A stretch of 64,000 bases of DNA, taken from contig CAMYIX010000043.1 of assembly GCA_947258615.1 (NCBI GenBank), forward strand, positions 72,973 through 136,972, given 5' to 3'. This document shows positions 3,799 through 18,356 of the stretch, piece by piece. A model generated the notes under the pieces. That model saw nothing but the letters and a program-made list of their open reading frames with translations. It did not search any database and was not told the origin of the DNA. Position 1 is the stretch's first letter, and the number at the start of each line of letters is the position of its first letter. Position numbers and translations under genes: made by a program. This DNA comes from an uncultured Ectothiorhodospiraceae bacterium (lineage in GTDB: Bacteria; Pseudomonadota; Gammaproteobacteria; UBA9214).

Positions 3799-3964
3799 TC
3801 GCCCGGCCGCGATAGCTCATAACTTGCTGAATACAAAGTAAATGGTATTATTTTCTGCGCCCCTGCCGGTGCATCATGAGCAGCGGGCGGGCAGGTGCGT
3901 ATAATCCGGGGCCGGATTTACCGGACGCTCCAGGTAAATTGATTCAACGAAGGATGAAGGCTTC

Positions 3965-5183: not shown

Positions 5184-5860
5184 CGAAGCCGCCGGAGATA
5201 CTGGCAAAATTATTCGGCTACCGGTTTGATGATCCCGGCTTACTGAAACAGGCCCTGGTCCATCGCAGCGCCGGCAGCCGCAACAACGAGCGGCTGGAAT
5301 TTCTTGGTGATGCCGTATTGGGCTGCGTGATCGCCGAGCAGGTGTTTGCGCGTCATCCGGGGGCCCGGGAAGGGGAACTCAGCCGGATGCGTTCGACCCT
5401 GGTGCGACGCGAGTCACTGGCCGAACTGGCCAATGGCCTCGATATCGGGGTCTACCTGAGGCTCGGTCCCGGCGAGCGCAAGAGCGGCGGTCACCACCGC
5501 CAGTCCATCCTGGCCGATGCCTTCGAGGCCGTGCTCGGCGCGATCTACCTGGACGGTGGCTTCGAACCCTGCCGACGTGCCATCGTCGCGCTGTTCGCGG
5601 AGAAGCTGGACGCAGTCGCCGACCTGGAACAGCTCAAGGACCCCAAGACACGCCTGCAGGAATACCTGCAGTCACAGCGCCAGCCACTGCCCGAGTACGA
5701 GGTTATCGACATCGCCGGTGAATCGCACGCCCAGTCGTTCAGGGTGCGCTGCAGTGTCAGTGATGTCGACATCGAACCCACCGTGGGGCAGGCAAAGAGC
5801 CGTCGGCGTGCCGAGCAGGACGCGGCCGGCAAGATGCTGGCCCGGCTGGGTGCCGGCTAG
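5180..5860 (+). CDS. rnc: ribonuclease III
   Basis: RNase III signature ERLEFLGDAVLG and a C-terminal dsRBD. TTG start assumed from the ORF track. Confidence 0.9.
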   Translation: MTKPPEILAKLFGYRFDDPGLLKQALVHRSAGSRNNERLEFLGDAVLGCVIAEQVFARHPGAREGELSRMRSTLVRRESLAELANGLDIGVYLRLGPGERKSGGHHRQSILADAFEAVLGAIYLDGGFEPCRRAIVALFAEKLDAVADLEQLKDPKTRLQEYLQSQRQPLPEYEVIDIAGESHAQSFRVRCSVSDVDIEPTVGQAKSRRRAEQDAAGKMLARLGAG

Positions 5861-10380: not shown

Positions 10381-12462
10381 GTGATCACGGACCGATCCGC
10401 GCGCACCGCTGGCCTGCTGACTGTCATCCTGCTGGCAGGTGCTGTGCTGACCGCGGATGCCCTGGAAAGTGTCAACCTCAAACTGGGCCGTGTCACCGGT
10501 CCCGGTTGGTCAGTGGACGAACTGGAGTCCCGACTTGTCTGGCGTGATGCGCAGCGGGCCGCGCTGCTGTTGACAGCGACGCGGGCCCGTCTGCCCGAAC
10601 CCTTCGGCAGCATTGCGGGCCTGCAACTCGACTGCCCGGATGCGCTGATTGCCGCAGACGAGGTCGCCTGCAGTCGTGCCCGGCTGGTATTCAGCTCGGA
10701 CCGGATCGGGCCGCAGCAGGTCCGGACCGGGTTCAGCTACCGCTTCAGTGACCGGCGCCTGCAGCTGGACCTGGCCAATATCCGCCTTGACGGCGGTCGC
10801 CTGTCGGTTCACGCCACCCAGGCCGCCCATGGCTGGGACCTGACCCTGCAGGCAGACGGGCTGCAACTGGACGCAGTTGCCGCGCGCCTCGCCGCCGCCG
10901 GTATCCTGCCGGTCCGGATTGACGGGACCGGCACACTGTCGATCACCGCGGAGCTGCAGGGAAAAGCGGCGCGTCCTGAGACAGGCCGGCTGTCCGCCCG
11001 GCTGGAATCGAGCGCATTCTCGGACGCGGAAGGCCGCCTGGCGGGTGAGAACCTCGAGCTCCAGCTTGATGCGGACGTGGCGGCAGCCGGGACCCGCTGG
11101 CGTGTCAGTGGCGAACTGAGTGCGCAACAGGGGCAGCTCTATATCGACCCCGTGTTTGTCGACATGGCCAAGACGCCGGTCCATGCCACGACCCGGTTCG
11201 ACTGGCACCCCGATCAGCGCCGGATCAGCCTGCATGCCTTCGACTATGATCAGCCGGGAACGGTCAGTCTGCATGCCGACGGCCGCCTCGATATCGATGC
11301 CAGCTCGATGATTGAAACGCTCTCTGTCGACGTGCGGGAAGGGGTGTTTCCGGGCCTGTACGACACCTATTTTCAACCCTGGCTCATTAACACGGTGCTG
11401 GCGGACCTGGACACCGAGGGCAAGCTCAGCGCGCAGCTGTACTGGCAGGACCGTGGCCTGGCCAGCGTCAGGCTGCGTCCAGAGGGCCTGACGATCCACG
11501 ACCGGGAGGCACGTTTCGGCTTTGGCGGCCTGGAGGCACAGATCGACTGGGCCGCCCAGGGGCCGCTGCGAGAGTCGCAACTGGCCTGGGAACAGGGTCA
11601 TGTCTACCGCGTCCCCCTGGGGCCATCGCAGCTGCAGGTGGAATCGGCAGGGTCCAGTGTCCGCCTGCGGGAGCCGGCCCGAATCGCCGTACTGGACGGT
11701 GAGTTGCAGGTGGATGAGTTTGAACTGGAGTATGCACCGGGGACTGCCTCGCGCTGGCATGTGGATGGCCTCCTAACCCCGGTGTCCATGAGCGACCTGA
11801 CCCGGGCACTGGGCTGGCCTGAATTCGGCGGCAGGCTGTCTGGCATGATCCCGGACGTGAACTACCGGGATGGCGACCTGTCCGTGGGCGGCATGCTGCT
11901 GGTGCGGGTATTCGATGGCGACATCACCCTGAGCAAGCTGCGGCTGGCCCAGCCCCTGTCCGTTGTGCCGCGGCTGTGGGTCGATGCGCGGGCCACCAAT
12001 ATTGACCTGGAGACCCTGACCCGGACATTCTCGTTTGGCCGTATCGAAGGCCGTCTCGATGGCCGGGTGGATGAGCTGTACATGGAGTCCTGGCGCCCGG
12101 TTTCCTTCGATGCCGCATTTGCCACCCCGCCGGATGACAAGTCGCGCCACCGCATCAGCCAGAAGGCGGTGGACAACATTTCCAGCATCGGCGGCGGTGG
12201 GCTCAGTGGCGCCCTGTCACGCAGCTTCATGCGTTTCTTCAAGGATTTTCCCTATGACCGCCTGGGGCTCAGTTGCCGCCTGGAAAACGGGACCTGTGAA
12301 ATGGGAGGGGTGGCGCCGGCGGCAAACGGTTATTATATCGTCAAGAGCCGGTTGTTACCGCCGCGTCTCGATGTCATTGGCTATGCCGACCGGGTCGACT
12401 GGGACAGCCTGGTGTCGCAGCTGGTCGCGGTTACCCGGCGCCAGGGTGCCGTGGTCAAGTGA
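10381..12462 (+). CDS. ydbH: YdbH-like AsmA-family large periplasm-spanning protein
   Basis: 693 aa with an N-terminal TM anchor then a long beta-rich repetitive region. Followed immediately by a YnbE/YdbL-like gene, as in the E. coli ydbH-ynbE-ydbL operon. GTG start. Confidence 0.6.
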   Translation: MITDRSARTAGLLTVILLAGAVLTADALESVNLKLGRVTGPGWSVDELESRLVWRDAQRAALLLTATRARLPEPFGSIAGLQLDCPDALIAADEVACSRARLVFSSDRIGPQQVRTGFSYRFSDRRLQLDLANIRLDGGRLSVHATQAAHGWDLTLQADGLQLDAVAARLAAAGILPVRIDGTGTLSITAELQGKAARPETGRLSARLESSAFSDAEGRLAGENLELQLDADVAAAGTRWRVSGELSAQQGQLYIDPVFVDMAKTPVHATTRFDWHPDQRRISLHAFDYDQPGTVSLHADGRLDIDASSMIETLSVDVREGVFPGLYDTYFQPWLINTVLADLDTEGKLSAQLYWQDRGLASVRLRPEGLTIHDREARFGFGGLEAQIDWAAQGPLRESQLAWEQGHVYRVPLGPSQLQVESAGSSVRLREPARIAVLDGELQVDEFELEYAPGTASRWHVDGLLTPVSMSDLTRALGWPEFGGRLSGMIPDVNYRDGDLSVGGMLLVRVFDGDITLSKLRLAQPLSVVPRLWVDARATNIDLETLTRTFSFGRIEGRLDGRVDELYMESWRPVSFDAAFATPPDDKSRHRISQKAVDNISSIGGGGLSGALSRSFMRFFKDFPYDRLGLSCRLENGTCEMGGVAPAANGYYIVKSRLLPPRLDVIGYADRVDWDSLVSQLVAVTRRQGAVVK

Positions 12463-12555
12463 TCCATGCCGGCAGGCAATGTTAACCTGGCGCCATTGGC
12501 AGCGTTAACCAGATTATTGAGACAATTATTTCTCGTAGAGCAAAGAGGACAGCTG

Positions 12556-13161
12556 ATGAAAACACTACGCATTCCCATGGCCATGCTGTTGATGCTGTTT
12601 GCCGCGGCCTGTGTCACGATCAATGTTTATTTTCCCGCCGAGGCCGCCGAGAAGGCTGCCGACCGCATCATCAAGGACGTCTACGGTGAACAGCCGGCAG
12701 CGCCCCGGGAGCCGGCGGCCGAACCGCAGTCGCGTTTTCAACCGCAGGTATTGCCGGCCCGTTATCGCTATGGCCTGCTTGACTGGCTGGTATCGCCGGC
12801 ACACGCCGAGGCCGATCTCTCGGTCAATACGCCGGCCATCAGCCAGCTCAAGGCGGACATGGAACAGCGCCACCGGCAGCTGGCCCCGCACTACACCTCC
12901 GGTGCTGTCGGGATGACCCATGACGGCGAGATCGCCATACGCGACCAGACCCTGCTTGCGTTGAAGGACAGGAATACGGTGAAGACTCTGGTGGCGAAAG
13001 AGAACCGCGACCGCGGTGCCCTGTATGCGGAGATCGCACGTGCCAACGGACACCCCGAATGGGAGGGTGAGATACGCCAGACCTTTGCCCGGCGCTGGGT
13101 GGACAATGCCCCCGGTGGCTGGTGGTACAGCAGCGCCAGCGGCAGCTGGAAACAGAAATAG
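12556..13161 (+). CDS. fused YnbE-like lipoprotein / YdbL (DUF1318) protein
   Basis: N-terminus MKTLRIPMAMLLMLFAAACVTINVYFPAEAAEKAADRIIKDV resembles the YnbE lipobox and beta-strand. C-terminus (ENRDRGALYAEIARANGHPEWEGEIRQTFARRWVDNAPGGWWY) matches the YdbL/DUF1318 signature. Confidence 0.6.
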   Translation: MKTLRIPMAMLLMLFAAACVTINVYFPAEAAEKAADRIIKDVYGEQPAAPREPAAEPQSRFQPQVLPARYRYGLLDWLVSPAHAEADLSVNTPAISQLKADMEQRHRQLAPHYTSGAVGMTHDGEIAIRDQTLLALKDRNTVKTLVAKENRDRGALYAEIARANGHPEWEGEIRQTFARRWVDNAPGGWWYSSASGSWKQK

Positions 13162-13214
13162 ACGTTCACAAAACCAACTTCCCAATATCACCGCAGAAAA
13201 TTGATTTAAAATAA

Positions 13215-13341
13215 TCTCACCGCAGAGGCGCAGAGGACGCAAAGTAAAGATTTCATCCAGGAAATAAGCTATTCGTCTATAGCTACATGATAAAAAATGT
13301 ATTGTTATGGGCTAATTGTTTTCTCTGCGTGCTCTGTGCCT
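13215..13341. repeat. imperfect palindromic intergenic repeat, copy A (GC-rich ~30-bp arms, AT-rich ~70-bp loop)
   Basis: Left arm CTCACCGCAGAGGCGCAGAGGACGCAAAG (13215-13243) is the near reverse complement of right arm TTCTCTGCGTGCTCTGTGCCTCTGCGGTGAG (13311-13341). An extra half-site ATCACCGCAGAAAA lies at 13186-13199. Confidence 0.8.
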
Positions 13342-13372
13342 CTGCGGTGAGTAATTATATAAATCAGCCCTT

Positions 13373-14149
13373 ATGAATATTTTTGTGTTTGATATCGAGA
13401 CGGTGCCCGATGTGGAGGGCGGCCGGCGCCTCTACCAGCTGGATGAGCTGGATGACAAGAATGTCGCCCGGGTGATGTTCCACAAACGCTCCCAGGAGTC
13501 CGGCGGTTCGGAGTTTCTGCGCCACCACCTGCACCGGATCGTTGCTATCTCGGTGGTGCTGCGCACGGCCGAACGCTTCAAGGTCTGGTCGCTGGGCGAG
13601 CCGGATGCCGATGAGGCGGAGCTGATCCAGCGGTTTTTTGACGGGGTTGAGCGCTTCTCGCCCAAGCTGGTCTCATGGAACGGGTCCGGTTTCGATCTCC
13701 CGGTCATCCACTATCGCAGCCTGCTGCACGGCATCAGCGCACCGCGCTACTGGGATACCGGCAAGGACGATCGTGATTTCAAGTGGAACAACTACCTGAG
13801 CCGCTTTCATGAGCGTCATACCGACCTGATGGACGTCCTCTCCGGCTACCAGCCCAGGGCGGCCGCACGACTGGACGAGATCGCAACCCTGCTGGGTTTC
13901 CCCGGCAAGATGGGGATGAGCGGTGACAAGGTCTGGGACAGTTACCAGGCCGGGGATATCGAGGGCATCCGCGACTACTGCGAGACCGACGTGCTCAACA
14001 CCTACCTGGTCTACCTGCGCTTCGAGTTGATACGCGGCCACCTGGGGCCGGATCAATACGAACAGGCCTGCCAGCAGATCCGCGACGGGTTGCAGCAAAC
14101 CGACAAGCCGCACCTGACGGAGTTCCTGCAGGCATGGCAGGCGGGCTAG
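13373..14149 (+). CDS. predicted 3'-5' exonuclease of the PolB-like / RNase H-fold family (COG3298-like)
   Basis: Starts MNIFVFDIETVPD (DEDD-type Exo I motif) with later acidic motifs (YCETDV). 258 aa, consistent with stand-alone PolB-exonuclease-like proteins. Confidence 0.6.
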   Translation: MNIFVFDIETVPDVEGGRRLYQLDELDDKNVARVMFHKRSQESGGSEFLRHHLHRIVAISVVLRTAERFKVWSLGEPDADEAELIQRFFDGVERFSPKLVSWNGSGFDLPVIHYRSLLHGISAPRYWDTGKDDRDFKWNNYLSRFHERHTDLMDVLSGYQPRAAARLDEIATLLGFPGKMGMSGDKVWDSYQAGDIEGIRDYCETDVLNTYLVYLRFELIRGHLGPDQYEQACQQIRDGLQQTDKPHLTEFLQAWQAG

Positions 14150-14172
14150 ATTCGTTCGTGCGGAATGAATAA

Positions 14173-14310
14173 CTCACCGCGGAGACGCGGAGAGCGCAGA
14201 GTGACTAAATAATAAAAAGCTGTGAAAATAACTACTCACTGAATCATAGAGACAAAGTTTTTATCTATTATTTGATTACTTTCTCGGCGTTCTCCGCGCC
14301 TCTGCGGTGA
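14173..14310. repeat. imperfect palindromic intergenic repeat, copy B
   Basis: Left arm CTCACCGCGGAGACGCGGAGAGCGCAGAG (14173-14201) pairs with right arm TTCTCGGCGTTCTCCGCGCCTCTGCGGTGA (14281-14310). The AT-rich 79-bp loop is unrelated to the copy A loop. Confidence 0.8.
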
Positions 14311-14342
14311 ATGTTCTATAACCAGAAAATGGCTCCACTCGA

Positions 14343-15671
14343 ATGAGCAAGCGTACCCGCAGACAACGCCTGCCTGCTCCCTGTGAGCGAATCACGATCG
14401 AGTCGTTGGGCCATGACGGTCGCGGTGTGGCGCACCGGGACGGCAAGGCGGTTTTCATCGACGCTGCCTTGCCGGGTGAGGAAGTCGCCTTCGAGTACCT
14501 GGCGACCCACCGCAAGTATGACGAAGGCCGCGTCACCGGTGTGCTTCGGCCATCGCGCGATCGGGTCGAGCCGAAGTGCCCGCATTTCGGTGTGTGCGGT
14601 GGTTGCAGCCTGCAGCATATGGCGGCGGCTGCGCAGATCGGCTCGAAGCAGCAGGTGCTGCTGGATAACCTGCAGCATATCGGCAAGGTGGAACCGGCGA
14701 TGCTGCTGGACCCGCTGACGGGTCCGGTGTGGGGCTATCGCACCAAGGCGCGCCTCGGTGTCAGGCATGTCATCAAGAAGGGCAGGGTGCTGGTCGGTTT
14801 CCGGGAAAAGCGCAGTGCCTTGCTCGCGGACCTCAAGGGTTGCGAGGTGATGCACCCGTCGGTGGGCCGGCGTATCGATGAACTCGCACAGTTGATCGAT
14901 GGGCTTGATGCCAGGGGGCGCATTCCCCAGATCGAGGTGGCGGTGGCGGAAGCGGTCACGGCCCTGGTATTCCGTAACCTCGATCCACTCGGGGCGGCGG
15001 ACCTGGAGAGCCTGAGGCAGTTTGGCGTCCGCATGGGTATCCACGTCTACCTGCAGCCGTCCGGGCCGGACAGCGTGCAGCTGTTGTGGCCGGATGAATC
15101 GACCCTGGTCTATCGCCTGCCGGGACAGGCCATCGAGATCGAGTTCAGACCGACCGACTTCACCCAGATCAACCCGGCCATCAACGTACAGATTGCCTCA
15201 CGGGTTCTGGAACTCCTGGACCTTGCTGATACGCACCGTGTACTGGAACTGTTTTGCGGACTGGGCAATTTCACCCTGCCGGTGGCACGCCATGCCGGTG
15301 AGGTGACGGGTGTCGAGGGGGATGCCGGCCTGGTCAGCCGGGCACGCGAGAATGCGCTGCGCAATGGCCTGCACAATGTCAGCTTTCATGCGGCCGACCT
15401 GGCCGAGCGCGTGACCGAGGCACCCTGGGCAGGGGTGGCCTACGATCGGGTGCTACTCGACCCGCCGCGCAGTGGTGCGGCGGCCGTCATGGACCTGCTG
15501 GGCAATATCAGGCCCGAACGCATGGTCTATATTTCCTGCCACCCGGGTTCACTGGCCCGCGATGCCGACCGGCTGGTCAACGAGTTCGGCTATCGGCTAC
15601 AGGCAACTGGCGTGATGGACATGTTCCCGCATACCGCCCACGTGGAGTCGATCGCCCTGTTTGAACGCTGA
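14343..15671 (+). CDS. rlmD: 23S rRNA (uracil1939-C5)-methyltransferase RlmD (RumA)
   Basis: N-terminal TRAM domain, Fe-S cluster cysteines CPHFGVCGGCSLQH, and a C-terminal SAM methyltransferase domain with the catalytic Cys; 442 aa. Confidence 0.85.
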   Translation: MSKRTRRQRLPAPCERITIESLGHDGRGVAHRDGKAVFIDAALPGEEVAFEYLATHRKYDEGRVTGVLRPSRDRVEPKCPHFGVCGGCSLQHMAAAAQIGSKQQVLLDNLQHIGKVEPAMLLDPLTGPVWGYRTKARLGVRHVIKKGRVLVGFREKRSALLADLKGCEVMHPSVGRRIDELAQLIDGLDARGRIPQIEVAVAEAVTALVFRNLDPLGAADLESLRQFGVRMGIHVYLQPSGPDSVQLLWPDESTLVYRLPGQAIEIEFRPTDFTQINPAINVQIASRVLELLDLADTHRVLELFCGLGNFTLPVARHAGEVTGVEGDAGLVSRARENALRNGLHNVSFHAADLAERVTEAPWAGVAYDRVLLDPPRSGAAAVMDLLGNIRPERMVYISCHPGSLARDADRLVNEFGYRLQATGVMDMFPHTAHVESIALFER

Positions 15672-15711
15672 CGGCGATTATTCACCATGGAGACGCGGGG
15701 AATCAAAAGAT

Positions 15712-15935
15712 ATCACCGCAAAGGCGCAAAGGGCGCAAAAAAGTTAAATAACATAAAATCACTCACCGCAGAGACGCGGAGAACGCAGAGCACATATTAT
15801 TGAAAAAACACAGCTACCAGTAATTACAAATATGGGTCACTCACCGGGTTTGGGTTTAACACTATTTTCTCCGCGTCCTCTGCGTCTCCGCGGTTAATAA
15901 TTATCTTTCTTTGCGCCCTTTGCGCCTTTGCGGTG
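15712..15935. repeat. nested pair of palindromic intergenic repeats, copy C (inner copy 15762-15895 inside outer copy 15712-15935)
   Basis: Outer arms ATCACCGCAAAGGCGCAAAGGGCGCAAA / TTTGCGCCCTTTGCGCCTTTGCGGTGA. Inner arms ACTCACCGCAGAGACGCGGAGAACGCAGAG / TTTTCTCCGCGTCCTCTGCGTCTCCGCGGTT. Extra degenerate half-sites at 15681-15701 and 15837-15848. Confidence 0.8.
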
Positions 15936-15953
15936 AAGGTTGTTGTTCAAGCC

Positions 15954-16561
15954 CTACTGCTTGTACCAGCGGGAGGTGAGGGCGCGGTAGACCCGGTTGG
16001 GGTACCAGCTTTTGCCGACGCTGCCGTTGTAGCGCGCCAGCGCCCTGAACAGATTGCCCTTTTCCCTCTTTCGGTAGTAGCTCAGGATGGTGCAGCCAAG
16101 GCGGATGTTGGTGCCGATGTGAAACAGGTTGTCTTCCGGATGGCCGATCTCATCCAGCCAGAACGGCATGATCTGCATCAGGCCCTGGGCCCCGGCGGTG
16201 GATATCGCAAAGCGATCGTAGTTGCTCTCTACCTCGATCAGCGCCAGGACCAGTTCCGGTTCGAGCCCGGCGCGGCGTGCCTCGTAGTGCACGGTTTTAA
16301 GAATCTTCAGGCGTTCTTCCGGGTCTTCGACGCGTTTCTGCAAACGGCTCGACATATCCGTCAGCCAGACCTCGGCATCAAAGCGGTCACTGAAGCTATC
16401 GCTCGACTCGATGGCCTCGACCAGGATCTGCCTCAAGGTGTCATCCGGGCGCTCCCGGGTGGCCGCCGCGGCATCGAATGCGCTGGCAAAGGACAATATC
16501 CCCAGCCAGGCAGATAGCACGATTCCGATCGAGAAGGGTGGAATGGGCGCCATATTGTCCA
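15954..16561 (-). CDS. lytic murein transglycosylase domain protein (Slt/MltE-like)
   Basis: Contains ALIEVESNYDRFAISTAGAQGLMQIMP, the catalytic Glu-Ser and AQGLMQ signature of family-1 lytic transglycosylases. Signal-peptide-like N-terminus. Start set at MDNMAPIPP to avoid overlapping proS. Confidence 0.65.
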
Positions 16562-16569
16562 TTATCGGC

Positions 16570-18282
16570 CTAGGCCGGCAACAGTTTATTCCTGAGAAAT
16601 TCTGCAACCCCGGTGTGTTTGATGTCCTCGCTGGCGTCGGCCCGGCGCGACTTGTATTCCACCAGGCCGCGGTCGAGGTTCTTCTCGCCGATCACCACGC
16701 GGTGCGGGATGCCAATCAGTTCCATGTCGGCGAACATGACCCCGGGGCGCACCTCGCGGTCATCCAGCAGGACCTCCAGTCCGGCCTCGCGCAGTTCTGC
16801 GTAGAGCGCATCGGCGGCCTCCCGGACGCGTTGCGACTTCTTCATATTCATCGGCAGCAGGGCCACCTGGAACGGGGCGATCGGGTCGGGCCAGATCATG
16901 CCCCGGGCGTCGTGATTTTGTTCAATCGCTGCCGCCACAATCCGCGACACGCCGATGCCGTAGCAGCCCATGATCATGTCGACCTCGCGGCCCTGTTGGT
17001 CCAGTACCGCGGCCTTCAAGGCCCGGCTGTACTTGTCGCCCAGCTGGAAGATGTGGCCGACCTCGATACCGCGTGCAATGGCAAGCCGGCCCTCGCCATC
17101 CGGGCTCGGGTCGCCATCGACGACATTGCGCAGGTCGGCGGTCTGCGGTTCCGGCAGGTCGCGCCCCCAGTTCACCCCGGTCAGGTGCTCGCCATCCCGG
17201 TTGGCGCCACAGACAAAATCAACGCAGTGTGCGGCCGCCAGGTCCACGATCACCGGTATTTCCAGTCCCACGGGTCCGAGCGATCCGGCCGAACACCCGG
17301 CCGCGCTGCGGATCTGATCGTCACTGGCGAATTCCAGCGGCAGGGCAACGGCGCCGTGTTTCTCTGCCTTGATGGTGTTCAACTCGTGATCACCACGCAG
17401 TACCAGGGCGACGATATCGGACTCCGTGCCCCGTACCAGCAGGGTCTTGAGACACCGGTCCGCCGGCATATCCAGAAATGCGCTGACCTCCTCTATGCTG
17501 TGCTGGCCGGGCGTGGCCAGCGTTTGCATCGCACTGTCCGGTTCCGGCCTTGCGCCAGCAGGTGCCACGGCCTCCGCGAGCTCGATGTTGGCGGCGTAGT
17601 CACTGGCATCCGAAAACGCGATGGCATCTTCTCCGGAATCGGCGAGCACGTGGAACTCGTGCGAGAGGTTGCCGCCGATCGCGCCGCTGTCGGCCTGTAC
17701 CGGGCGAAAGTCCATGCCCAGCCGGGTGAATATGCGGGTATAGGTCCGGTACATGACCTGGTAGGTCTGTTCCAGAGAGTCCTGGTCGGTATGGAAGGAG
17801 TAGGCGTCTTTCATGAGGAACTCGCGGGCGCGCATGACGCCGAAGCGCGGCCGGATTTCATCGCGGAACTTGGTCTGGATCTGGTAGTAGTTGACCGGCA
17901 ACTGCTTGTAGCTGCGGATCTCGCGCCGTGCGATGTCGGTGATGACCTCCTCGTGGGTCGGGCCGAAGCAGAACTCACGCTGGTGGCGGTCATGGAGGCG
18001 CAGCAGTTCCGGTCCGTACTGGTCCCAGCGCCCGGATTCCTGCCACAGTTCGGCCGGCTGGACTGCCGGCATCAGCAATTCCAGCGCCCCCGCCTGGTTC
18101 ATTTCCTCGCGGATAATGGCCTCGACCTTCCGCAGGACCCTGAGCCCCAGCGGCAGCCAGCTATAGACGCCGGCCGCCTGCTTGCGAATCATGCCGGCGC
18201 GCAGCATCAGTTGATGGCTGACAATCTCGGCATCGGCCGGTGTCTCCTTCAGGGTGGACAGGGGGAACTGGGACAGGCGCAT
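16570..18282 (-). CDS. proS: proline--tRNA ligase
   Basis: [35 protein letters not shown]-terminus; class II aaRS motifs and an editing domain insertion; 570 aa. Confidence 0.92.
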
Positions 18283-18356
18283 GATGTGTTTGACTCTAAA
18301 TGTTGATCAGGCGGGAGATTGTAGCGGCCAAGCGGTGGCAAGGTACAGATGATGAA

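What the first reader, a model, noticed from the sequence alone, without database searches (positions are those of the whole stretch)
15712..15935. Nested repeat: one palindromic element inserted inside the loop of another
At copy C an inner element with GCAGAG-type arms (15762-15895) lies entirely within the loop of an outer element with GCAAAG-type arms (15712-15935). Self-nesting is a hallmark of mobile miniature elements (insertion into a pre-existing copy) and argues for mobility over a purely structural or regulatory origin.
Basis: seen in the sequence. Interest (0 to 1): 0.55.

Follow-up and report, generated by a model that had tools for sequence, protein, structure and literature searches.

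The report
Nested hairpin repeats of GxxExxY-linked family
Downstream of rlmD, one small hairpin-forming repeat sits inside the loop of another; both belong to a very widespread, apparently undescribed repeat family whose longer members carry a small nuclease gene, and this copy is an old, inherited nest rather than a recent jump.

Summary
Window 15713-15936 is a two-layer palindrome. Outer 30-nt arms (97% complementary, GCAAAG units) enclose a complete 134-nt inner hairpin (GCAGAG/GCGGAG units).

Both layers belong to one repeat family. Each arm is TTCACC followed by 3-5 tandem 8-9-nt units, GCRRAG plus spacer. Sister copies lie in the two preceding intergenic gaps (13216-13351, 14173-14311), with two arm remnants. 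The arm motif occurs 8 times in the window against 0.01 expected. It also occurs in at least 120 metagenome contigs of 40-70% GC.

Family-wide, the second purine of the unit defines two subtypes, and each element is uniform for one. The nest is A-type outside and G-type inside, so it holds two distinct elements.

Syntenic relatives (RlmD 86-89% identical) carry one to three matched layers at this site. One of them (L208) has the same nest. An outgroup (73%) has short gaps and no arms.

Longer family members carry a GxxExxY (PF13366) nuclease gene between the same arms. All 10 independently sampled GxxExxY genes had tandem-unit inverted repeats nearby; in most these bracket the gene.

Best reading: an old, vertically inherited nest of non-autonomous, MITE-like foldback elements. 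No target-site duplication was found, and the mobility mechanism is inferred, not shown.

The parts
15713..15743 (.). Outer element, left arm (A-type: TCACC GCAAAG G CGCAAAG GG CGCAAAAAAG)
   Evidence: Inverted repeat I2: 30 nt, 97% complementary. Exact match to the arm motif.
15907..15937 (.). Outer element, right arm (CTTTGCGCCCTTTGCGCCTTTGCGGTGAA)
   Evidence: Orthologous to the outermost right arm in L208, L203 and L202.
15744..15762 (.). Left remnant of the outer element's AT-rich loop (spacer between the outer and inner left arms)
   Evidence: Read from the sequence. Together with 15898-15906 it gives a loop of about 30 nt, which is typical of short family members.
15763..15790 (.). Inner element, left arm (G-type: TCACC GCAGAG A CGCGGAG AA CGCAGAG)
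   Evidence: It differs at 1 position from its L208 orthologue.
15791..15866 (.). Inner element loop (AT-rich, no ORF)
   Evidence: Homologous to the L208 loop with about 18-20% differences. It contains a 10-nt copy (15837-15846) of the start of the inner left arm (D5).
15867..15897 (.). Inner element, right arm (TTCTCCGCGTCCTCTGCGTCTCCGCGGTTAA)
   Evidence: Arm motif on the minus strand with 1 mismatch at 15873-15895. Orthologous to R2/Rb in L208, L203 and L202.
15898..15906 (.). Right remnant of the outer loop (spacer TAATTATCT)
   Evidence: Read from the sequence. The spacer is conserved in L203 and L202.
15681..15702 (.). Solo degenerate left arm L0 (TTCACCATGGAGACGCGGGGAA), lying 10 nt after the rlmD stop codon
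   Evidence: Direct repeat D2. Orthologous to an intact first arm in L201, L203 and L207, and absent in L208.
13216..13351 (.). Sister copy A (arms 13216-13244 / 13321-13351), between the DUF1318 gene and the PolB-exo-like gene
   Evidence: Inverted repeat of 38 nt, 84% complementary. Sequence.
13186..13201 (.). Truncated left arm (TATCACCGCAGAAAAT) upstream of copy A. It is the remnant of an outer layer that is intact in relatives.
   Evidence: L201, L202 and L203 have a full arm at this position, and gap A in L202 is itself a nested pair.
14173..14311 (.). Sister copy B (arms 14173-14201 / 14280-14311), between the PolB-exo-like gene and rlmD
   Evidence: It is orthologous, with a homologous loop, to the copies in L201 and L208.
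14343..15671 (+). rlmD (23S rRNA m5U1939 methyltransferase), the upstream flanking gene
   Evidence: Pfam PF05958 and TRAM. Homologues are named RlmD by their sources.
15954..16607 (-). SLT-domain lytic transglycosylase, the convergent downstream flanking gene
   Evidence: Pfam PF01464.

Best explanation
Copy C is a nest of two non-coding members of one family of foldback-type, MITE-like repeat elements.

Each element has two inverted arms. An arm is a terminal TTCACC followed by 3-5 tandem 8-9-nt units (GCRRAG plus a 2-3-nt spacer). The arms surround a variable AT-rich loop.

A short A-type element (GCAAAG units, original loop about 30 nt) sat downstream of rlmD. A 134-nt G-type element (GCAGAG/GCGGAG units) then became inserted into its loop. 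A third, now degenerate, solo arm lies just upstream.

This happened before the window's lineage split from several related species. Since then the composite has been inherited vertically. It has been remodelled by unit slippage, deletions between arms, and gain or loss of layers.

The family's gene-carrying members hold a ~125-aa GxxExxY protein gene between the same arms. This protein is a PD-(D/E)XK nuclease (PF13366 / TIGR04256) with weak Cas4/RecB-like similarity. The ORF-less hairpins are most likely its non-autonomous derivatives. The conserved repeated units in each arm probably serve as iterated protein-recognition sites, not as a stem selected for pairing.

Shown: the anatomy, family membership, subtype structure, orthology and polymorphism, the short arm-free gaps in the outgroup, and the GxxExxY association.
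Inferred: insertion as the event that made the nest, mobility in trans, and the nuclease as the mobilising enzyme.

Any present role of the hairpin at the convergent rlmD/SLT transcript ends (for example RNA-end protection or weak termination) is possible but untested.
For: Anatomy and significance:
- Nested inverted repeats and their fold.
- Arm motif found 8 times against 0.01 expected.

Family:
- At least 79 copies on two Gemmatirosa megaplasmids.

Two distinct elements in the nest:
- The second purine of the unit is uniform within an arm (GGG in 52 and AAA in 35 of 114 arms).
- It also agrees between the two arms of an element: 7, 8 and 12 mismatches of 57 at the three unit positions, against about 28 expected, P<0.0005.
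- The nest is A-type outside and G-type inside.

Gain and turnover at this site:
- In the same gene order, the rlmD-SLT gap is 122 nt (L201), 242 (L208), 282 (window), 398 (L203-206), 413 (L209) and 544 (L202), with 1-3 matched layers in the relatives whose arms could be scored (86-89% RlmD; L209 was not).
- L208 has the same nest with a homologous loop.
- The outgroup L238 (73% RlmD) has gaps of 15 nt and about 120 nt at sites A and B, and no arm motif in 9.4 kb.

Motif rather than pairing is conserved:
- Arms show a mean of about 4.5 mismatches per 27 nt.
- Spacer positions are no more complementary than chance.
- There is no strand-consistent G-U bias: 103 against 88, with 174 concordant and 168 discordant pairs.

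Gene-carrying relatives:
- PDDEXK_3 is the only recurrent family among 130 small ORFs next to arms (5 hits).
- In L102, L192, L216 and L228 the arms bracket that gene alone.
- In L094, L217 and L218 the cassette sits between moxR|DUF58, fabD|fabG and hemE|hemH.
- In the reverse test, all 10 independently sampled GxxExxY genes (4 viral contigs, 4 plasmids from 3 phyla, 2 metagenome proteins) had inverted repeats built of short tandem units nearby. Eight are bracketed by them. In L217 the arms overlap the ends of the annotated gene, and in L214 complete hairpins flank the gene on each side. Seven have the TTCACC-(RCRRAG)n type.

Literature and RNA databases:
- No Rfam family matches.
- No paper was found describing the repeat or the association.
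Against: - No target-site duplication was found at the inner element or across 63 family members.
- No recent insertion was caught. The nest is old, and four near-identical strains (L203-L206) show only a one-unit slippage difference.
- The window (64 kb) has no GxxExxY gene. Whether the source genome has one is unknown.
- In a Kouleothrix population, arms multiply as tandem arrays, independently on each side of the gene (4/4, 3/4, 2/4, 2/2). Layers can therefore arise without insertion.
- Full ++-- nesting is rare in the wider sample, occurring once among about 170 arm clusters.
- The outer arms (97% complementary) are more perfect than the inner ones, the opposite of a naive 'inner is younger' expectation.
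- GxxExxY resembles Cas4 and lambda exonuclease only weakly (Foldseek E 0.01, TM 0.55). It has no known transposase activity.
- Arm subtype and protein similarity did not visibly co-segregate among 13 cases.
Confidence: 0.7

Rival explanations
1. The layers arose locally, by tandem duplication of arms on each side of a single original hairpin followed by divergence. On this view no element inserted into another.
For: - In Kouleothrix contigs with identical GxxExxY protein, left and right arms occur as near-identical tandem arrays whose numbers vary independently.
- Unit number differs by one 9-nt unit between L203 and L204.
- The window site has an unpaired extra left arm.
- Solo arms are common family-wide.
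Against: - The outer and inner layers belong to different family-wide subtypes, and in each layer the left and right arms match. Divergence after duplication would need parallel changes in three units on both sides.
- The spacers between layers are not repeats of each other, unlike in the Kouleothrix arrays.
Confidence: 0.15
2. The hairpins are primarily host structural or regulatory signals, and nesting is incidental. Candidate roles are a bidirectional transcription terminator, an mRNA 3'-end stabiliser or an RNase III site between the convergent rlmD and SLT genes.
For: - The predicted fold is very stable.
- The site lies between convergent genes.
- The composite has been retained at the same site across species.
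- Family-wide, flanks are A-rich upstream and T-rich downstream of the stem.
- 23S rRNA intervening sequences of similar build (28-bp stem plus a small ORF) are RNase III substrates (PMC4990558).
Against: - No terminator-like site is called in or at the elements.
- Spacer positions in the stem are no more complementary than chance, and mismatches show no strand-consistent G-U bias. Pairing is therefore not what is conserved.
- The same arms bracket genes 400-1400 nt long.
- The outgroup with the same gene order has no hairpins.
- Copies A and B sit between co-directional genes that are only 15 nt and about 120 nt apart in the outgroup.
Confidence: 0.1
3. The elements are mobile, but GxxExxY is only a frequent passenger (for example a defence or addiction gene). 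On this view the arms are recombination or transposition sites used by some other enzyme acting in trans, possibly in a cassette-exchange system.
For: - In one operon slot, strains carry either a GxxExxY gene with hairpin arrays or a ParE toxin-antitoxin pair.
- One cassette also carries a DUF5677 gene.
- In Gemmatirosa the gene lies between two complete hairpins and is a pseudogene, while at least 79 hairpins persist.
- GxxExxY is a minimal nuclease domain with no separate DNA-binding domain.
- 'Inside-out' arm pairs 19-22 nt apart recur, apart from one at 4 nt.
Against: - No other protein family recurs next to the arms. There was a single phage-integrase hit and no Y1 or DDE transposase among the recurrent or best-scoring families (top 25 of 74) in 130 neighbouring ORFs.
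- The toxin-antitoxin alternative in that slot has no arms.
- The association holds in the reverse direction for all 10 GxxExxY genes sampled without reference to the arms, including AT-rich variants whose repeats differ in sequence but not in architecture.
Confidence: 0.35

Closest known systems
Bacterial MITEs (e.g. Correia/NEMIS of Neisseria, Nezha of cyanobacteria, RUP, ERIC); comparison from my own knowledge
   Same: - They are small, non-coding, intergenic and multi-copy, with terminal inverted repeats that can fold into a hairpin.
- Copies can nest in or abut one another.
- Presence or absence differs between related genomes.
- A few longer relatives share the same ends and carry a gene.
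   Different: - No target-site duplication was detected.
- The ends are built of 3-5 tandem short units.
- The gene-carrying relatives encode a ~125-aa PD-(D/E)XK nuclease rather than a DDE or other recognised transposase.
- The loop sequence is not conserved between family members, whereas a classical MITE is conserved along its whole length.
- The arm motif is shared across phyla.
REP / REPIN elements mobilised by RAYT (Y1 HUH transposases), and BIME clusters; comparison from my own knowledge
   Same: - Two short inverted repeat units form a larger hairpin.
- The elements are very abundant and intergenic, and they cluster in mosaics.
- A single-copy protein gene is flanked by the same repeats and is proposed to mobilise them in trans.
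   Different: - The arms here are direct tandem repeats and are not themselves palindromes.
- There is no GTAG head.
- No Y1 transposase appeared among the recurrent or top-listed families of neighbouring ORFs.
- The associated gene is GxxExxY.
- A genuine REP-like palindrome does occur in the innermost loop of relatives L202 and L203, but it is a different sequence.
23S rRNA intervening sequences (IVS) with an S23p / four-helix-bundle ORF (Coxiella, Leptospira); PMC4990558
   Same: - The element is about 430-450 nt, bounded by a ~28-bp terminal inverted-repeat stem that encloses one small ORF of unknown function.
- Its distribution is sporadic and suggests horizontal transfer.
- It has long been suspected to be a mobile element whose ORF might serve mobility.
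   Different: - IVSs sit in helix 25 or 45 of 23S rRNA and are excised from the RNA by RNase III.
- The elements here lie between protein-coding genes.
- Their ORF, when present, is GxxExxY and not S23p.
- No four-helix-bundle family was seen among the recurrent or top-listed families of ORFs next to arms.
- RNA processing was not tested.
Foldback (FB) transposons of Drosophila and other eukaryotes; comparison from my own knowledge
   Same: - The inverted arms are composed of short tandem repeats whose number varies.
- The central loop is variable, and only occasionally protein-coding.
- Palindrome-driven deletions and rearrangements occur.
   Different: - FB elements are eukaryotic and much longer.
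- There is no sequence or protein relationship. The resemblance is architectural only.
Free-standing homing-endonuclease genes (e.g. the seg and mob genes of T4-like phages); comparison from my own knowledge
   Same: A small nuclease gene is wedged between conserved, normally adjacent genes, and is present or absent between close relatives.
   Different: - Homing-endonuclease genes are not bounded by long inverted repeats.
- They do not spawn abundant ORF-less derivatives.
- GxxExxY cassettes occupy many unrelated sites.

Membership tests
MITE (miniature inverted-repeat transposable element) | Small (under about 500 bp), non-coding, with terminal inverted repeats | tested here: met
   The inner element is 134 nt and the outer 224 nt, with no ORF. 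The arms are 28-30 nt.
MITE (miniature inverted-repeat transposable element) | Multiple dispersed copies | tested here: met
   - There are 4 complete copies and 2 remnants in the window, but all lie within 2.8 kb.
- At least 120 metagenome loci carry the motif.
- At least 79 places were found on two Gemmatirosa replicons.
- The genome-wide count in the source genome is not available.
MITE (miniature inverted-repeat transposable element) | Target-site duplication flanking the element | tested here: not met
   - No direct repeat was seen at the inner or outer boundaries.
- No offset or length combination (k = 2-7) rose clearly above a permutation null across 63 elements.
MITE (miniature inverted-repeat transposable element) | Insertion polymorphism (filled versus empty sites) | tested here: met
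   - The outgroup L238 has gaps of 15 nt and about 120 nt without arms at sites A and B.
- The number of layers differs among relatives.
- No precise empty site for the inner element was found.
MITE (miniature inverted-repeat transposable element) | An autonomous partner with the same ends that encodes a transposase | tested here: inconclusive
   Longer elements with the same arms encode GxxExxY / PDDEXK_3. No transposase activity is known for this protein, and its best fold matches are Cas4 and lambda exonuclease, both weak.
REP/REPIN-RAYT | Each repeat unit is itself an imperfect palindrome with a conserved GTAG head | tested here: not met
   The arm is a direct tandem repeat of GCRRAG units headed by TTCACC.
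REP/REPIN-RAYT | Associated RAYT (Y1_Tnp, PF01797) gene flanked by the repeats | tested here: not met
   Y1_Tnp did not appear among the recurrent or 25 best-listed of 74 Pfam families hit by 130 ORFs adjoining arms. Only PDDEXK_3 recurs.
23S rRNA intervening sequence (IVS) elements | Located in helix 25 or 45 of the 23S rRNA gene | tested here: not met
   The elements lie between protein-coding genes. No rRNA match was found in 12000-18000.
23S rRNA intervening sequence (IVS) elements | A terminal stem of about 28 bp enclosing a small ORF, excised by RNase III | not testable with these tools
   The stem length matches. Gene-carrying relatives enclose a 125-aa ORF. RNase III cleavage needs an experiment.
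Rho-independent (intrinsic) terminator | A GC-rich stem-loop followed immediately by a U tract | tested here: inconclusive
   The scan calls no terminator at the elements, because their loops exceed its limit. The tails are GGTGAAGGTTGTTGTT on the plus strand and GGTGATATCTTTTGA on the minus strand. Family flanks are T-rich from position +5.
Integron attC / gene cassette | Core sites R''/R' (GTTRRRY), with an IntI integrase and cassette arrays | tested here: not met
   The termini are TTCACC/GGTGAA. Among 130 neighbouring ORFs there was only one phage-integrase hit. No array context occurs in the window.
Known structured RNA (Rfam 15) | A match to a curated covariance model | tested here: not met
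   Only sub-threshold microRNA-precursor matches were found, typical of any long hairpin. There were no gathering-score matches in 10 related loci.

The most novel reading that the evidence does not exclude
The TTCACC-(GCRRAG)n arms may be the ends of a previously unrecognised class of selfish element. Its only protein would be the ~125-aa GxxExxY nuclease, a minimal Cas4/RecB-like PD-(D/E)XK enzyme.

On this reading the nuclease recognises the iterated units and moves or copies the cassette. The far more numerous ORF-less hairpins, including the nested pair in this window, would be its non-autonomous derivatives.

The system would span many bacterial phyla, some archaea and some viruses. It would also give a function to the large TIGR04256 / PF13366 family.
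Probability: 0.3. Interest if true: 0.8.

Novelty: new variant of a known kind. Interest (0 to 1): 0.55.

Why it matters
For this window, the result explains why three consecutive intergenic gaps are about 70-200 nt longer than in the outgroup (A and B; gap C adjoins a different gene there). It identifies the odd palindromes as inherited remains of mobile repeats, not as a dedicated regulatory RNA.

More broadly, the same arm motif turned up in at least 120 unrelated metagenome contigs. It also flanks GxxExxY genes in Bacteroidota, Gemmatimonadota, Alphaproteobacteria, Chloroflexi and viral contigs. I found no Rfam model and no paper describing it.

If the association reflects mechanism, three things follow:
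- A very large family of proteins of unknown function (GxxExxY) gains a testable role.
- Many short spurious ORFs and contig breaks in metagenome assemblies gain an explanation.
- A possible nuclease-only mobile element is added to the list of bacterial repeat families.

Practically, these hairpins are likely sites of assembly breaks (L207 ends inside one) and of palindrome-driven deletions (L201).

Tried and rejected
- **Rfam.** An E-value search of 12-18 kb and a gathering-score search of 10 related loci gave only chance microRNA-like hairpin hits.
- **Literature.** Searches for arm strings and for GxxExxY / PF13366 / TIGR04256 found nothing relevant. The only hits were primers, one Cas4 mis-call note and a superfamily catalogue.
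- **Source genome.** An exact look-up of the source RlmD failed. The genome-contig collection holds nothing closer than 62% identity, and those 80 loci lack the motif apart from one stray match in L044.
- **RNA-level selection.** I tested for strand-consistent G-U wobble and found no signal (103 against 88; 174 concordant against 168 discordant).
- **Target-site duplication.** A search over 36 offset combinations and k = 2-7 gave no convincing signal.
- **Symmetric layering.** I tested whether one left and one right arm are added together. It is rejected in Kouleothrix, where the two sides vary independently.
- **Co-segregation of arm subtype with GxxExxY similarity.** The result from 13 proteins was inconclusive.
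- **Other cargo.** I looked for other recurrent cargo or a recognised transposase next to the arms. None was found.
- **Plasmid search.** A blastn search of the plasmid collection with the window's own element gave no match.
- **Elements seen in relatives.** The 48-nt arm-inserted module and the REP-like palindrome found in relatives are absent from the window.
- **Layer-by-layer history.** Reconstructing the left half of gap C across species could not be resolved. AT-rich spacers align ambiguously, and L203/L202 have a different left-arm order.
Full report
**1. The observation**

The 282-nt gap lies between the stop codon of rlmD (14343-15671, +) and that of a convergent SLT-domain transglycosylase gene (15954-16607, -). 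It contains the following parts, in order:

| Part | Coordinates | Sequence or size |
|---|---|---|
| Degenerate solo left arm L0 | 15681-15702 | TTCACCATGGAGACGCGGGGAA |
| Outer left arm | 15713-15743 | TCACCGCAAAGGCGCAAAGGGCGCAAAAAAG |
| AT-rich spacer | 15744-15762 | 19 nt |
| Inner left arm | 15763-15790 | TCACCGCAGAGACGCGGAGAACGCAGAG |
| Inner loop | 15791-15866 | 76 nt |
| Inner right arm | 15867-15897 | |
| Spacer | 15898-15906 | 9 nt |
| Outer right arm | 15907-15937 | |

The outer arms are 30 nt and 97% complementary. The inner element lies wholly in the outer loop.

The gap folds as a hairpin within a hairpin. As RNA the energy is -110.8 kcal/mol (z = -10.1). As DNA it is -64.4 kcal/mol (z = -9.5).

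The 23-nt arm motif CACCGCRRAGRCGCRRAGRRCGC, allowing up to 3 mismatches, occurs 8 times in the 64-kb window against 0.01 expected.

**2. Sister copies and the build of an arm**

Two further complete elements fill the two preceding intergenic gaps:
- Copy A, 13216-13351, lies between a DUF1318 gene and a PolB-exonuclease-like gene.
- Copy B, 14173-14311, lies between that gene and rlmD.

A truncated arm sits at 13186-13201. Nothing similar occurs elsewhere in the window.

Each arm is TTCACC followed by three or more tandem units of 8-9 nt (GCRRAG plus a 2-3-nt spacer). The loops are AT-rich, unrelated to one another and have no ORFs. Rfam has no matching family.

**3. A very widespread family**

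- Most loci show a +/- arm pair with 21-180 nt between the arm cores. A tail reaches 245-1433 nt.
- Solo arms are common.
- In 10-11 loci the arms face outward; in all but one (4 nt) the gap is 19-22 nt.

In the complete Gemmatirosa kalamazoonensis megaplasmids one such hairpin has at least 40 and 39 places, and the per-record limit was reached.

In 57-60 non-redundant hairpins the two arms differ at about 4.5 of 27 positions, and these differences are patterned.
- The second purine of the unit is uniform within an arm: GGG in 52 and AAA in 35 of 114 arms.
- It also agrees between the two arms of an element. Mismatches number 7, 8 and 12 of 57 at the three unit positions, against about 28 expected (P<0.0005).
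- The spacer positions are no more complementary than chance.
- Transition mismatches show no strand-consistent G-U bias: 103 against 88, with 174 concordant and 168 discordant pairs.

What is conserved is therefore an iterated sequence motif in each arm, with two main subtypes. A stem optimised for pairing is not what is conserved. This argues for protein recognition rather than a selected RNA helix.

It also bears directly on the finding. The nest is A-type (GCAAAG) outside and G-type (GC[AG]GAG) inside, and left and right arms match within each layer. It is therefore two distinct elements.

**4. The same site in relatives**

The source contig is in the protein index (P0001, 100% identity) but could not be fetched. 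Syntenic contigs of relatives were obtained, all with the order DUF1318 | exo | rlmD | SLT(-) | proS(-).

| Locus | RlmD identity | rlmD-SLT gap |
|---|---|---|
| L201 | 87% | 122 nt |
| L208 | 86% | 242 nt |
| window | 100% | 282 nt |
| L203-L206 (four samples) | 87% | 398 nt |
| L209 | 82% | 413 nt |
| L202 | 87% | 544 nt |
| L207 | 89% | contig ends inside the gap |

- L208 has the same A-outside / G-inside nest with a homologous inner loop, about 18-20% different. Third-codon positions of rlmD differ by 29.6%. L208 lacks L0, and its outer right arm has lost one unit.
- The right-hand pair of arms and their spacer are orthologous in the window, L208, L203 and L202.
- L203 and L202 have three matched layers plus a solo first arm.
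- L201 has collapsed to one solo arm plus a tiny perfect palindrome.
- L203 and L204 differ by one 9-nt unit in gap A.
- Gap A is itself a nested pair in L202. The window keeps only a stump of that outer layer.

An outgroup with the same gene order (L238, 73% RlmD) has 15 nt and about 120 nt at gaps A and B. It has no arm motif anywhere in 9.4 kb.

It is not met. The elements were gained in this lineage and have been turning over since. This particular nest is nonetheless old and vertically inherited. No precise pre-insertion state of the outer element was found, and there is no target-site duplication at the inner boundaries or family-wide.

**5. Gene-carrying relatives**

Among the metagenome loci, the longer elements repeatedly contain a ~125-aa ORF that matches PF13366 (PDDEXK_3) and TIGR04256 ('GxxExxY protein').
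- In L102 and L192 the arms bracket that gene alone.
- In L094 the arms bracket it together with a DUF5677 gene. The cassette sits between a DUF58 gene and a MoxR ATPase gene, which from my own knowledge are normally adjacent.
- Among 130 small ORFs adjoining arms, PDDEXK_3 is the only recurrent family (5 hits); apart from two TPR-repeat ORFs, the rest are singletons.

I then sampled GxxExxY genes without reference to the arms: four viral contigs, four plasmid records and two metagenome proteins. The plasmid records came from Gemmatirosa, Bernardetia, Bacteroides finegoldii and Sphingomonas.
- All ten have inverted repeats built of short tandem units nearby.
- Eight are bracketed by them. In Sphingomonas (L217) the arms overlap the ends of the annotated gene. 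In Gemmatirosa (L214) a complete hairpin flanks the gene on each side.
- Seven have the recognisable TTCACC-(RCRRAG)n type, including CACAGAG and CACGAAG variants.
- Three AT-rich viral cases have different unit sequences but the same architecture.

The cassettes sit between fabD|fabG, hemE|hemH and radA|next gene, and inside an hdr-like operon. In one slot of that operon, strains carry either GxxExxY plus a variable array of small hairpins, or a ParE toxin-antitoxin pair without arms.

The protein family is huge and unusually uniform, at 65-84% identity across sequences attributed to Chloroflexi, an archaeon and others. A confident AlphaFold model (pLDDT 92.7) matches Cas4 (4ic1) and lambda-exonuclease-type nucleases only weakly (E 0.01, TM 0.55). 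No paper linking GxxExxY to these repeats was found.

**6. Most likely mechanism**

I read the family as foldback-type mobile elements.
- Its gene-carrying members encode GxxExxY.
- Its much more numerous ORF-less members are non-autonomous derivatives.
- The repeated GCRRAG units and the TTCACC terminus would be the recognition sites.

In this lineage a short A-type hairpin downstream of rlmD received a G-type element in its loop. Later events were unit slippage, deletions between direct or inverted arms, and gain or loss of layers.

What is shown: the anatomy, the family, the subtypes, the orthology and polymorphism, the short arm-free gaps in the outgroup, and the gene association.

What is inferred: that the nest arose by insertion, that ORF-less copies move in trans, and that GxxExxY is the enzyme.

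Three main cautions apply.
- No target-site duplication was found.
- In a Kouleothrix population, arms multiply as tandem arrays independently on each side of the gene (4/4, 3/4, 2/4, 2/2). Short-read assembly of such arrays is unreliable, however.
- The window has no GxxExxY gene.

**7. Rivals**

- *Local duplication of arms.* This is disfavoured by the matched but different subtypes of the two layers.
- *A purely regulatory hairpin* (terminator, RNA stabiliser or RNase III site). This is disfavoured by the lack of pairing-specific conservation, by the hairpin-free outgroup, and by the same arms bracketing whole genes. Secondary use at the convergent transcript ends cannot be excluded, because family flanks are A-rich upstream and T-rich downstream.
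- *GxxExxY as a passenger, with another enzyme doing the work.* This remains a serious alternative, which I put at about 0.35.

**8. Comparison with known systems and novelty**

The elements work like MITEs or REPINs. They fail the MITE criterion of a target-site duplication. They fail the REP/RAYT criteria, because the arm is not a palindromic unit, there is no GTAG head and no Y1 transposase is present.

Architecturally they resemble eukaryotic foldback elements and 23S rRNA intervening sequences. The latter have a 28-bp stem and one small ORF (PMC4990558), but the location and the ORF differ here.

The nested copy itself is an ordinary outcome for such repeats. The family and its link to GxxExxY appear to be undescribed in the sources I could search. 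I rate it a new variant of a known kind, with interest 0.55.

Noticed in passing
window 13186-13201: A truncated left arm (TATCACCGCAGAAAAT) lies upstream of copy A. Relatives L201, L202 and L203 have a full arm at this position, and gap A in L202 is a complete nested pair. Gap A in the window is therefore a decayed nest as well.
   Followed up: partly
window 13162-15953: All family copies in the 64-kb window lie in three consecutive intergenic gaps (2.8 kb), and the same three gaps are occupied in the relatives. The clustering suggests local hopping or a regional hotspot. It is unexplained.
   Followed up: partly
window 15759-15768 and 15837-15846: A 10-nt exact direct repeat, TCACTCACCG, occurs twice: at the start of the inner left arm and again inside the inner loop. 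It may be the stump of yet another layer.
   Followed up: no
L202 (about 2694-2781, 3912-3959, 5346-5400, 5712-5759, 5784-5831): A module of about 48 nt (CGGCAATTGCTCCCTGCATTGCTCTACCTCCTCCTTCCCTGGAGTCGC and variants) is inserted inside arms, between the last unit and GCGGTGAA. It is absent from the orthologous arms of L203, which makes it a precise indel polymorphism. It looks like a second small element that targets the arms. It is not present in the window.
   Followed up: partly
L202 5549-5590; L203 5533-5575: A REP-like palindrome (GTCGGATTACGCTGCGCTAATCCGACCTAC) lies in the innermost loop of gap C in two relatives. It is absent from the window.
   Followed up: partly
L201 5339-5460: Gap C has collapsed to 122 nt: one solo arm plus a mini-hairpin around a perfect palindrome (GCACGACTGCA TCCC TGCAGTCGTGC). 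This looks like a palindrome-mediated deletion of the whole interior.
   Followed up: partly
L203 2795-3030 vs L204 2786-3030: Strains with identical RlmD protein differ by one 9-nt arm unit (5 units against 6). This points to replication slippage within arms.
   Followed up: yes
L113, L126, L137, L154, L168, L176, L181, L184, L190, L196: 'Inside-out' arm pairs occur, in the form (CTCTGCG..)n GCGGTG - spacer - CACCGC (..GCAGAG)n. The spacing is a constant 19-22 nt (4 nt in one L176 pair) but the spacer sequence varies. They could be abutting element ends, a preferred insertion distance or a junction. They are unexplained.
   Followed up: partly
L218-L227 (Kouleothrix hemE | GxxExxY | hemH): Left arms form a tandem array upstream of the gene (period about 65 nt) and right arms form one downstream (period about 103 nt). 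Copy numbers of 2-4 vary independently between samples. Short-read collapse of the arrays may contribute.
   Followed up: yes
L241/L248 vs L242/L243/L244, slot after the 439/446-aa FAD-binding gene: The same operon slot holds different inserts in different strains: a ParE toxin-antitoxin module without arms, or a GxxExxY gene with 2-3 side-by-side small hairpins of CACGAAG type. The left arm supplies the last codons of the upstream gene.
   Followed up: partly
L214 501-889 (Gemmatirosa plasmid 1): This GxxExxY copy has in-frame stop codons and so is a pseudogene. It lies between two complete hairpins rather than in one loop, while at least 79 hairpin copies persist on the two megaplasmids.
   Followed up: partly
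L171 36-351: A tandem array of at least five left-arm-like blocks (period 43-50 nt) is followed by one right arm.
   Followed up: no
L207 2593-2599: The contig of the closest relative (89% RlmD) ends inside a right arm of gap C. The repeats probably break short-read assemblies.
   Followed up: no
window 16411-18306 (+): A 631-aa ORF with no Pfam match lies antisense to proS (16570-18282, -). It is most likely a spurious shadow ORF in GC-rich DNA.
   Followed up: no
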